A DNA stretch of 11,196 nt from a virus. Its lineage: Duplodnaviria; Heunggongvirae; Uroviricota; Caudoviricetes. The notes beneath the pieces were generated by a model that had not been told where the DNA came from, did no database searches, and saw only the letters and a program-made list of their open reading frames with translations. Of this stretch, positions 835-1,330 are shown in pieces. The DNA is taken from positions 1 through 11,196 of IMG/VR virus record IMGVR_UViG_2541047814_000003, one strand, 5' to 3'. Position 1 is the stretch's first letter. Each line of letters begins with the position of its first letter. The position numbers and the translations under genes were made by a program.

Positions 835-1330
835 CCTTAATCATCTGCGTAATCATAATGATTATTCAGCAAGCGCAATTTTGCGCTTTGCTTAAAGTTC
901 AGCGAGTTACCGCGCCGACTTCCTCAAATTGAGGTTTCCGAAAATATCAGCGGGTTAGCGATTAAGCTGACGAGTAATTAAACTGCGAAAATTTCGTAGT
1001 TTGTGAATATATTCCGGTCTGCTGGTTAACAGTCCTCAGATGTGAGTGATGTATCCGGCGCAATTTTGCGCTTTGCTTTAATCTCAGTAAGTTACCGCGC
1101 CAATTTCCACAGTCAGTGGAAATTTGGAAGAATCAACGGTTTAGGCCTTAATCATCTGCGTAATCATAATGATTATTCAGCCAGCGCAATTTTGCGTTAT
1201 CTGGAATATCAGCAAGTTACCGCGCCGGATTCAGCTAATGGCTGTTTCCGAAAGAATCAACGGGTTAGGCTGGTTTCCCCCGATGTTCGCCGCTGGCGAA
1301 TTTCGAAAATATCAACCAGTTACCGCCGTA
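835..1330. repeat. Non-coding tandem direct repeats (about 125-185 bp units) with conserved sub-blocks
   Basis: 36-bp block CCTTAATCATCTGCGTAATCATAATGATTATTCAGC identical at 835-870 and 1146-1181; GCGCAATTTTGCG at 873, 1058, 1184; AGTTACCGCGCC at 905, 1090, 1215 (variant 1318); TTTCCGAAA..ATCA.CGGGTTAGG at about 936, 1127, 1245. Confidence 0.75.

What the first reader, a model, noticed from the sequence alone, without database searches (positions are those of the whole stretch)
835..1330. About 500 bp of non-coding tandem repeats downstream of the packaging genes
At least three tandem units share conserved blocks including a 36-bp identical segment, GCGCAATTTTGCG hairpin-like elements and AGTTACCGCGCC. 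Such arrays are typical of protein-binding platforms (partition site, second replication cis-region like a crr analog, or a terminase/integrase arm-site array) or repeated small RNAs. All overlapping ORFs look spurious.
Basis: seen in the sequence. Interest (0 to 1): 0.55.

Follow-up and report, generated by a model that had tools for sequence, protein, structure and literature searches.

The report
IHF-site and hairpin array in satellite tail
The repeats are real: they are a non-coding string of small DNA hairpins, each followed at a fixed distance by a sequence matching the binding site of the bacterial DNA-bending protein IHF, sitting at the end of a phage-parasitising island of E. coli, and nobody seems to have described them.

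Summary
The window is an EcCICFT073-family phage satellite (PICI) inserted between clpS and cspD. Its att core lies at 172-198 and a lambda-identical cosN at 2284-2300. Positions 835-1330 are the inner half of a 1.1-kb non-coding tail between the last late-operon gene (a 93-aa ORF, 1320-1601, minus strand) and attL. The segment is not a strict tandem repeat. It holds 7 co-oriented modules, often about 48 bp apart. Each module is a short palindrome of variable sequence, a 9-10 bp A/T-rich linker, and a 13-bp box. Five boxes match the IHF consensus WATCARNNNNTTR exactly, against about 1 match expected in the whole window on both strands. Two more boxes differ by 1-2 bases. Across 54 related tails the box core stays fixed while its N positions and the hairpin stems change, with compensatory stem changes. 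This holds in an island from a non-E. coli host whose adjacent ORF is only 42% identical. The array follows that ORF in Rpp-type, TerS-type and capsid-forming PICIs, is absent from about 70% of E. coli genomes, and has no phage or Rfam match. My best reading is a cluster of IHF-bending sites, functionally like RIP/BIME-1 elements but not a member of that family. It is not a cos site, a crr analogue, a partition site or an Int-arm array. Binding and function are untested.

The parts
172..198 (.). att core (attL copy), AAATTAACTACACCATTAACTACACCG. It marks the island boundary and is context for the tail.
   Evidence: A 27-bp direct repeat (26/27 identical) is found again just beyond int in strain N10.
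199..834 (.). att-proximal half of the non-coding tail. It is hairpin-rich and has no exact IHF box. It carries two Chi sites (279, 580), CACGAACAA repeats, GTTAACTAC sites, CGTAGTT repeats and a 20-bp perfect palindrome at 777-796.
835..870 (+). 36-bp module, copy 1. It contains TAATCAT as a direct repeat plus the palindrome TAATCATAATGATTA (850-864).
   Evidence: (D3). In related tails the arms co-vary: TGGTCAT/ATGACCA, TGGTG/CACCA.
867..892 (+). Palindrome/hairpin CAGCAAGCGCAATTTTGCGCTTTGCT.
   Evidence: covariation in this hairpin family
897..909 (+). Degenerate IHF-type box GTTCAGCGAGTTA (2 mismatches to WATCARNNNNTTR).
922..934 (+). Palindrome CCTCAAATTGAGG.
945..957 (+). Exact IHF-consensus box TATCAGCGGGTTA.
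981..1001 (+). Palindrome AACTGCGAAAATTTCGTAGTT with no IHF box after it.
1058..1071 (+). Palindrome GCGCAATTTTGCGC. It is the one hairpin in the array also flagged as terminator-like on the + strand (flagged span 1057-1072).
1082..1094 (+). IHF-type box TCTCAGTAAGTTA (1 mismatch).
1102..1124 (+). Palindrome AATTTCCACAGTCAGTGGAAATT (9-bp stem).
1131..1143 (+). Exact IHF-consensus box AATCAACGGTTTA.
1146..1181 (+). 36-bp module, copy 2 (palindrome 1161-1175).
1181..1204 (+). Hairpin CCAGCGCAATTTTGCGTTATCTGG.
1207..1219 (+). Exact IHF-consensus box TATCAGCAAGTTA.
1232..1244 (+). Hairpin CAGCTAATGGCTG.
1255..1267 (+). Exact IHF-consensus box AATCAACGGGTTA.
1286..1300 (+). Palindrome TTCGCCGCTGGCGAA.
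1310..1322 (+). Exact IHF-consensus box TATCAACCAGTTA. Its TTA is the complement of the TAA stop codon of the 93-aa ORF. This terminal box is present in about 80% of related tails.
1317..1334 (-). Inverted repeat CGGTTACGGCGGTAACTG followed by GTTGATATTT. It is a terminator-like site on the late-operon strand, at the end of the 93-aa ORF.
   Evidence: The same DNA is conserved in the 42%-identity relative L090.
1320..1601 (-). 93-aa ORF (phrog_1561, function unknown). It is the gene that always precedes the array.

Best explanation
Positions 835-1330 are a cluster of binding sites for the host DNA-bending protein IHF. They lie in the non-coding tail of a PICI phage satellite, between the last gene of the late (packaging) operon and attL.

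Each module has three parts: a short palindrome whose sequence is free to vary, a 9-10 bp A/T-rich linker (about one helical turn), and a co-oriented 13-bp box WATCAR-N4-TTA.

Inferred mechanism: IHF heterodimers occupy the boxes, and each one bends the DNA sharply. Where neighbouring sites are about 48 bp apart, this would fold much of the segment into a compact nucleoprotein block.

Inferred role: the block acts as a boundary, much as has been proposed for the chromosomal REP-IHF elements (RIP/BIME-1) at the 3' ends of operons. In the excised circle the late operon, the tail, attP and int all lie on the same strand. The block would therefore separate the strongly transcribed late operon from attP and the int promoter region.

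What is shown: the architecture, the match to the IHF consensus, the conservation pattern, and the linkage to the island. What is inferred: IHF binding, which I put at about 0.65-0.7, and the boundary role, at about 0.3. The confidence given below is for the explanation as a whole.
For: 1. **Consensus matches.** Five exact WATCARNNNNTTR matches lie in 945-1322, all on the + strand, against 1.06 expected in the whole window on both strands, with 0 of 200 shuffles reaching the window's total of 7. Two further boxes have 1-2 mismatches. The density is 10 per kb, against 0.22 per kb in K-12.

2. **Conservation pattern.** In 54 non-redundant box segments the information content follows the IHF consensus. 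T2, C3, A4, T10, T11 and A12 carry 1.5-2.0 bits. Position 5 is only A or G. N6-N8 carry 0.45-1.05 bits. An AA flank sits upstream.

3. **A distant relative.** Island L090 has a neighbouring ORF only 42% identical, and its host flank has no match in 5,426 E. coli genomes. It again has 5 exact boxes, all co-oriented, four of them directly preceded by a hairpin. Its N4 positions read CGGG, TCGA, TGAG, CGAG and TAAC.

4. **Hairpins at a fixed distance.** 71% of 70 unique units have a perfect stem of at least 5 bp within 38 nt upstream, against 10% of shuffles. The stem ends 9-10 nt before the box in 49 of 70 units. Twenty-nine different 5' arms occupy that position.

5. **Covariation in one hairpin family.** One pair reads GC 23, CG 4, UA 4. 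There are 21 double-change cells against 8.4 in shuffles (0/500 shuffles as high), and the score is well above every slid register.

6. **No strand bias.** G.T mismatches number 6 and A.C mismatches 11. Many palindromes are symmetric through their centre. Both fit a DNA-level element better than an RNA of one strand.

7. **Linkage to the island.** The array gives 2082 places in 1336 genomes and the 93-aa ORF gives 2008 places in 1567 genomes, with a median of 1 per genome. Both occur in Rpp-type EcCICFT073, TerS-type islands and the capsid-forming island of O157.

8. **Precedent.** The BIME-1 linker frequently carries an IHF site, and REP/BIME elements are credited with terminator, mRNA-stabilising and topological-insulator roles (PMC3333891, read).
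Against: - No binding data exist. A consensus match is not proof of occupancy.
- The units are related by duplication, so the matches are not independent events.
- The fourth N is G in 49 of 54 boxes, and CCG or GGC usually follows the box. Plain IHF recognition does not explain this.
- Copy number runs from 0 to 6 exact boxes per tail, with a median of about 2. About 20% of tails lack an exact box, have a C-to-A change at the most conserved C (TATAAAACAGTTA), or replace the terminal unit with a GTCAC-iteron module. A large array is therefore not indispensable.
- The boundary role rests on analogy only. The function of chromosomal RIP elements is itself unsettled.
- The palindromes have no known role in IHF binding.
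Confidence: 0.5

Rival explanations
1. The modules are RNA or transcription elements. They could be a stack of intrinsic terminators on the + strand that stops host read-in (for example from phoQ) from running antisense into the late operon. Alternatively they could be 3'-UTR stem-loops that protect the late mRNA. The box would then be only the T/A-rich tail region.
For: - Hairpins are followed by short T runs on the + strand. One of the window's hairpins (1057-1072) and two of the five L090 units pass a terminator scan.
- At four of five integration sites the flanking host gene points into the tail.
- Both strands fold better than shuffles, with z-scores of -5.5 and -4.8.
- A terminator-like site overlaps the ORF's stop codon on the minus strand.
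Against: - Most stems are only 5-7 bp with 3-4 T, and the scan finds no more terminators than in shuffles (3 against 2.5).
- A terminator tail does not need ATCA-R-N4-TTA conserved at fixed positions.
- There is no wobble-pair strand bias, no promoter-like site feeding the + strand, and no Rfam match.
- At the window's own site the flanking gene clpS points away from the island.
Confidence: 0.17
2. The boxes are bound by an island-encoded protein, most plausibly the 93-aa ORF product that is always adjacent, possibly together with IHF. This would form a satellite-specific nucleoprotein complex of unknown role.
For: - The ORF and the array are inseparable across three island architectures and have near-equal copy numbers.
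- The ORF has an invariant basic C-terminus, Y-x-WKKPERLRR.
- The G at N4 and the CCG/GGC after the box go beyond the IHF consensus.
Against: - The ORF diverges to 42% identity while the box core stays exactly the IHF consensus.
- The ORF matches no DNA-binding family in Pfam, and its PHROG family has no known function.
- The AlphaFold model is of low confidence (pLDDT 64.8).
- Part of the C-terminal conservation may be DNA-level, because it overlaps the inverted repeat and the terminal box.
Confidence: 0.12
3. The array has no specific function. It is a duplicating, recombining repeat that expanded from the terminal unit, tolerated as filler or used as adjustable length ballast for a cos-packaged genome.
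For: - Module number and order are highly mosaic, and tail length ranges from about 350 to 1150 bp.
- The window's array is among the largest, with 5 exact boxes against a median of about 2.
- The N10 island (about 11.04 kb) and EcCICFT073 (about 11.2 kb) are close in size despite a tail difference of roughly 0.5-0.7 kb.
- Island size is reported to matter for transfer (PMC6092414).
Against: - Filler would not keep the box core, the 9-10 bp spacing and the stem complementarity across divergent units and hosts.
- The size comparison rests on only two islands.
Confidence: 0.12

Closest known systems
RIP/RIB elements (BIME-1: REP - IHF-site linker - REP) of the E. coli chromosome
   Same: Both are extragenic and lie at the 3' end of a transcription unit. 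Both combine palindromic units with an IHF consensus site. Both are mosaic and vary in copy number from locus to locus (PMC3333891).
   Different: The palindromes here are 13-26 bp, heterogeneous, and lack the REP consensus and its 5' GTAG. All units point the same way, rather than alternating as REP and iREP. There are up to 7 IHF-type boxes per locus instead of one. The family is confined to PICI tails (absent from about 70% of E. coli genomes) rather than present in hundreds of copies per genome. No RAYT-type transposase is associated.
IHF-organised phage sites: lambda cosB (R3-I1-R2-R1) and attP arms (H1, H2, H')
   Same: IHF consensus sites are interleaved with other short elements in a cis-acting non-coding region of a lambda-related mobile element, next to a Nu1-like terS and near attP.
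   Different: The array is about 1 kb from cosN (2284-2300) and 640-1130 bp from the att core (172-198). It has many more IHF sites. Its interleaved elements are unlike one another, so they are not repeated R or arm-type sites. It also persists with unrelated terminase modules.
Plasmid/phage centromeres built from repeats (F sopC: 12 x 43 bp each with an inverted repeat; P1 parS with a central IHF site). This comparison is recalled from general knowledge.
   Same: Units of about 45-50 bp each carry an inverted repeat, and P1 parS uses IHF.
   Different: Centromere repeats carry one identical palindrome read by a cognate ParB/SopB encoded nearby. Here the palindromes differ between units and no partition genes are present.

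Membership tests
IHF binding site | Match to the asymmetric consensus WATCAANNNNTTR (R tolerated at position 6). | tested here: met
   There are 5 exact matches and 2 near matches in 897-1322, all on the + strand. The information profile of 54 unique boxes follows the consensus. The consensus is as quoted in the literature found.
IHF binding site | A/T-rich DNA 5' of the core. | tested here: met
   AA occurs at -2/-1 in 49 and 40 of 54 boxes, with T-rich positions at -10 to -8.
IHF binding site | Specific binding and bending by IHF protein. | not testable with these tools
   This needs EMSA, footprinting or ChIP.
REP/BIME (including RIP = BIME-1) | REP unit: a 20-40 nt imperfect palindrome of the y/z1/z2 consensus with a conserved 5' GTAG. 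| tested here: not met
   Twenty-nine different stem sequences occupy the position, none of REP type. GTAG is present in only a subset. The definition is from PMC3333891.
REP/BIME (including RIP = BIME-1) | REP and iREP in alternating orientation separated by defined linkers. | tested here: not met
   All units and all boxes are co-oriented.
REP/BIME (including RIP = BIME-1) | Hundreds of copies dispersed through the host genome. | tested here: not met
   The median is 1 place per genome and the maximum is 6. There is no match in about 4,090 of 5,426 genomes. Copy number tracks the 93-aa ORF.
REP/BIME (including RIP = BIME-1) | IHF site in the linker; location at the 3' end of an operon. | tested here: met
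lambda-type cos site (cosQ-cosN-cosB) | A cosN cleavage sequence adjacent to the TerS-binding repeats. | tested here: not met
   The only cosN is at 2284-2300 on the minus strand, upstream of terS. There is none in 1-2283 even allowing 3 mismatches.
P4 crr (cis replication region) | A cluster of the same type I iterons (TGTTCACC) as the origin. | tested here: not met
   Ten exact CTGTTCACC copies (plus one 1-mismatch copy) lie at 5613-5835. There are none in 835-1330, only a single 1-mismatch CTGTTAACC at 1024.
attP arm-type site array | A repeated arm-type motif within a few hundred bp of the core. | tested here: not met
   The array starts 640 bp from the core (172-198). The constant box is unlike the repeats next to the core. 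Int binding itself was not testable.
Type III toxin-antitoxin RNA repeats (ToxI-like) | Near-identical tandem repeats of about 36 nt directly upstream of a toxin gene on the same strand. | tested here: not met
   There is no tandem array. The units are heterogeneous, and no gene follows on the + strand.
Any Rfam RNA family | Covariance-model match. | tested here: not met
   There is no match in 1-2400 at E<=1.

The most novel reading that the evidence does not exclude
The array is an IHF sponge. When the satellite is induced and replicates to high copy, hundreds of copies each carrying 5-7 high-affinity sites would draw down free IHF. This would handicap IHF-assisted helper functions, such as lambda-type terminase assembly at cosB site I1 and Int/Xis reactions. 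The satellite's own cos has no lambda-like cosB or IHF site according to PMC9026076, so it would be unaffected. Variable copy number between islands would then reflect tuning of interference strength. Nothing here excludes this reading, and nothing here tests it.
Probability: 0.06. Interest if true: 0.8.

Novelty: new variant of a known kind. Interest (0 to 1): 0.45.

Why it matters
EcCICFT073 and EcCIEDL933 are the model Gram-negative PICI and capsid-forming PICI. About a tenth of an 11-kb satellite is this non-coding tail. The papers I could read on these elements describe their cos sites, Rpp, capsid genes and replication, but not this region.

If IHF binds here, a host architectural protein becomes part of the satellite's design at the junction of packaging operon, attP and int. 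The element would also offer a small, genetically tractable system for asking what palindrome-plus-IHF arrays do. That question has stayed open for chromosomal RIP/BIME-1 elements.

There is a practical side. People who engineer PICIs as delivery vehicles would want to know whether this 0.5-1 kb can be removed.

Tried and rejected
- **Tandem repeat.** TRF found nothing in the region.
- **Known RNA.** Rfam gave no match at E<=1, and there are no tRNA or tmRNA genes.
- **Coding.** The five overlapping ORFs have no PHROG match.
- **Second cos site.** EcCICFT073 has two, but this window has only one cosN, at 2284-2300.
- **crr analogue.** The origin iterons are confined to 5613-5835.
- **Lambda R-site similarity.** GTTTCCG is shared with lambda R3 (lambda sequence recalled from memory). 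I rejected this because only 7 nt match, the island's own cosB region looks different, and the array also occurs with unrelated terminases.
- **IS200/IS605 or RAYT-type ends (hairpin plus TCAA/TTAC).** Rejected because the spacing differs from what I recall for IS608, there is no transposase, and the family is not dispersed. This rests on memory, not on a test.
- **dif/Xer-like site in the 36-bp module.** Rejected because its arms co-vary as a palindrome.
- **Strand of a putative RNA from wobble pairs.** No bias was seen: 6 G.T against 11 A.C.
- **Structure of the 93-aa ORF.** The AlphaFold model has pLDDT 64.8 and pTM 0.39, too poor for a fold search.
- **Homologues of the ORF.** The family is very narrow, with 38 representatives among 1.84 billion proteins and no annotation.
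- **K-12 annotation for RIP elements.** I fetched it to compare spacing directly, but the current record lists no REP/RIP features. I used that sequence only as a background control.
- **Length-ballast idea.** Not tested beyond two islands.

Full report
**What the window is**

All genes lie on the minus strand. They are:
- a tyrosine integrase (9958-11196);
- a D5/P4-alpha-like primase-helicase (5849-7681);
- a PerC-family protein (4650-5018);
- a lambda E-like major capsid protein (3134-4189);
- a lambda D-like decoration protein (2787-3122);
- a 137-aa protein with weak similarity to the C-terminal part of head maturation proteases (2361-2774);
- a Nu1-family small terminase (1613-2155);
- a 93-aa ORF of unknown function, phrog_1561 (1320-1601).

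The same DNA, 100% identical over 600-1400, lies in E. coli strain N10 between clpS and cspD. A 27-bp direct repeat flanks that island, which places the att core at window 172-198. Related islands include EcCICFT073 itself and the capsid-forming island of O157:H7, both next to phoQ. The window is therefore a PICI-type phage satellite. Its whole non-coding tail runs from 199 to about 1320.

**Checking the observation**

The segment is not a head-to-tail tandem array, and Tandem Repeats Finder is silent on it. It consists of two long copies 311 bp apart and, nested within them, a series of shorter modules.

Reading the units side by side shows a common plan:
- a short palindrome;
- about ten A/T-rich bases;
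- a box ATCA(A/G)-N4-TTA, usually followed by CCG or GGC.

The box starts are at 897, 945, 1082, 1131, 1207, 1255 and 1310. The last box overlaps the stop codon of the 93-aa ORF.

Hairpin density is high across the whole tail. Perfect stems of at least 6 bp occur at 10-14 per kb, against 1-2.5 per kb in the coding parts of the window. Shuffles of the two non-coding segments contain on average fewer than one such stem each, where 5 and 9 are observed.

**The constant element matches the IHF consensus**

WATCARNNNNTTR matches exactly five times in 945-1322, always on the + strand. Only 1.06 matches are expected in the entire 11.2-kb window on both strands. The density is 10 per kb, against 0.22 per kb in 50 kb of E. 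coli K-12.

The units are related by duplication, so raw counts overstate the evidence. The pattern of conservation is more telling. I collected 54 non-redundant tails from E. coli genomes and IMG/VR contigs and extracted 70 unique units. In 54 unique box segments:
- T2, C3, A4, T10, T11 and A12 carry 1.5-2.0 bits each;
- position 5 is only A or G;
- the first three N positions vary freely.

**An independent check from a distant relative**

A relative of the 93-aa ORF with only 42% identity sits in an island (L090) with different upstream genes. Its host flank matches none of 5,426 E. coli genomes. Its tail again has five exact boxes, all in the same orientation. Four of them directly follow a hairpin, and the N4 positions read CGGG, TCGA, TGAG, CGAG and TAAC.

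Whatever reads the box stayed the same while the island's own protein diverged. That points to a conserved host factor. WATCAANNNNTTR is the accepted IHF consensus (papers found).

**The variable element is kept as a palindrome, not as a sequence**

- 71% of unique units have a perfect stem of at least 5 bp within 38 nt upstream of the box, against 10% of shuffled controls.
- The stem ends 9-10 nt before the box in 49 of 70 units.
- Twenty-nine different 5' arms occupy that position.

Within the GCGCAATTTTGCGC family, one pair reads GC 23, CG 4, UA 4. Double changes number 21 cells against 8.4 in shuffles, with 0 of 500 shuffles as high, and all slid registers score much lower.

Mismatches that would be wobble pairs on one strand or the other are about balanced, 6 against 11. 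Many palindromes are symmetric through their centre. This argues for a DNA-level feature rather than an RNA from one particular strand, though it does not prove it.

**What the array is not**

- **Not a cos site.** The lambda cosN 17-mer occurs once, at 2284-2300 on the minus strand. It lies upstream of terS, exactly as in lambda (background in PMC6092414 and PMC6739421).
- **Not a crr analogue.** The P4-type iteron CTGTTCACC is clustered at 5613-5835, next to the primase gene, and is absent from the array.
- **Not the Int arm array.** It starts 640 bp from the core, and other repeats lie closer.
- **Not tied to one terminase.** It follows TerS, Rpp, or the terS-terL pair of capsid-forming islands.
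- **Not a genome-wide host repeat.** The array matches 2082 places in 1336 of 5426 genomes and the adjacent ORF matches 2008 places in 1567 genomes, both with a median of one per genome.
- **No match elsewhere.** It has no match among 50,697 phage records, only four plasmid matches, and no Rfam match.

**Likely mechanism**

I conclude that the array is a cluster of IHF sites interleaved with structure-selected palindromes. IHF would bend each box sharply. Where neighbouring boxes are about 48 bp apart, this would compact much of the segment.

The closest known objects are the chromosomal RIP/BIME-1 elements. These also pair palindromic units with an IHF site at the 3' ends of operons and are credited with terminator, mRNA-stabilising and topological-insulator roles (PMC3333891). 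The array fails the membership tests for that family: it has no REP consensus or GTAG, no alternating orientation, and no genome-wide spread.

By analogy, and from the geometry of the excised circle, I favour a boundary role. In the circle the late operon, the tail, attP and int lie on one strand. The int start codon is only about 22 bp from the core. The array would separate the heavily transcribed late operon from attP and int. That step is inference only.

**Points against**

- There are no binding data.
- N4 is nearly always G, and a conserved CCG or GGC follows the box. IHF recognition does not require either.
- Copy number runs from 0 to 6 exact boxes per tail.
- About a fifth of tails lack an exact box, carry a C-to-A change in the core, or replace the terminal unit with a GTCAC-iteron module. 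A large array is therefore dispensable.

**Rival explanations**

- **Terminator or RNA stem-loop stack.** A few units pass a terminator scan.
- **Binding by the 93-aa protein.** It is inseparable from the array, but it diverges while the box does not.
- **Neutral repeat or length ballast.** Island sizes of about 11.04 and 11.2 kb despite a tail difference of roughly 0.5-0.7 kb are suggestive, but that is only two islands.

**Most novel reading not excluded**

The array could be an IHF sponge that handicaps IHF-assisted helper packaging during satellite replication. I give this about 6%.

**Literature**

The papers I could read on EcCICFT073, Rpp, capsid-forming PICIs, PICI cos sites and synthetic PICIs do not mention this region or IHF sites in it. 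This check covers only the library available to me.

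Noticed in passing
window 279, 580, 4317, 4949, 6846, 8366 (+) and 3310, 5283, 6163, 9234, 10305 (-): The window holds eleven Chi sites (GCTGGTGG) in 11.2 kb, against 0.34 expected from shuffles and about 0.2 per kb in K-12. EcCICFT073 has 11 in 11.2 kb and the O157 capsid-forming island has 13 in 15.2 kb. Nearly every related tail keeps at least one Chi in the + orientation (59 + against 10 - in 51.9 kb). That orientation is active for RecBCD moving in from the cosN/terS end. A satellite is in effect a red- gam- cos replicon, so Chi may be selected to survive RecBCD and to make packageable multimers. I found no paper on this in the library.
   Followed up: partly
window 2284-2300 (-), 2157-2194: A 17-mer identical to lambda cosN (GGGCGGCGACCTCGCGG) lies about 130 bp upstream of the Nu1-like terS start, laid out as in lambda. 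An 11-bp perfect inverted repeat (AATACACCAAC / GTTGGTGTATT) sits just before the start codon and may be part of this island's cosB.
   Followed up: partly
window 5613-5835: The replication origin lies here. Ten exact copies and one 1-mismatch copy of the P4 type I-like iteron CTGTTCACC, in both orientations, flank an A/T-rich stretch. That stretch holds an exact IHF consensus (5785-5797, minus strand). The whole cluster is directly downstream of the primase-helicase gene.
   Followed up: partly
window 199-240 and 519-527; L001 23595-23643: The int start codon is only about 22 bp from the att core. In the excised circle, int therefore lies downstream of the tail on the same strand. A weak sigma-70-like promoter on the minus strand (TTGATC-17-GATATT, 237-209) overlaps the CACGAACAA repeats (202-230, inverted copy at 519-527). 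It could be an int promoter that is complete only in the circular form and is autoregulated through arm-type sites.
   Followed up: no
window 679-801; L090 (reverse-complement view) about 365-410: A 123-bp block is conserved at 93-95% in many genomes that lack the rest of the array. It holds three CGTAGTT/AAACTACG copies (746-768) and a perfect 20-bp palindrome GAGTTGCAGATCTGCAACTC (777-796). The distant island L090 has four CGTAGT copies about 10 bp apart near its att core. This is the pattern expected for excisionase or Int arm sites.
   Followed up: no
window 2361-4395; L094 17234-19268: The island, and EcCICFT073 itself, encodes a lambda E-like capsid protein and a D-like decoration protein. 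The adjacent 137-aa protein has weak similarity to the C-terminal part of head maturation proteases; my inference is that this corresponds to the lambda Nu3 scaffold region. The 2018 description states that EcCICFT073 lacks capsid morphogenesis genes, so the role of these three genes deserves a look.
   Followed up: no
L048, L014, L078, L089 tails (last about 120 nt before the 93-aa ORF): An alternative tail module carries four to five GTCAC repeats 8-11 bp apart (TGTCACGGCGTGTCACTGGTTGTCACTCTCCGTCAC). In some tails it replaces the terminal IHF-box unit; in others it sits just upstream of it. It looks like an iteron array for an unidentified protein.
   Followed up: no
window 1320-1345 (-): The last nine residues of the 93-aa ORF (WKKPERLRR) and the DNA encoding them are invariant even at 42% overall identity. 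This DNA overlaps an inverted repeat and the terminal IHF box. Some of the apparent protein conservation may therefore be a DNA-level constraint.
   Followed up: partly
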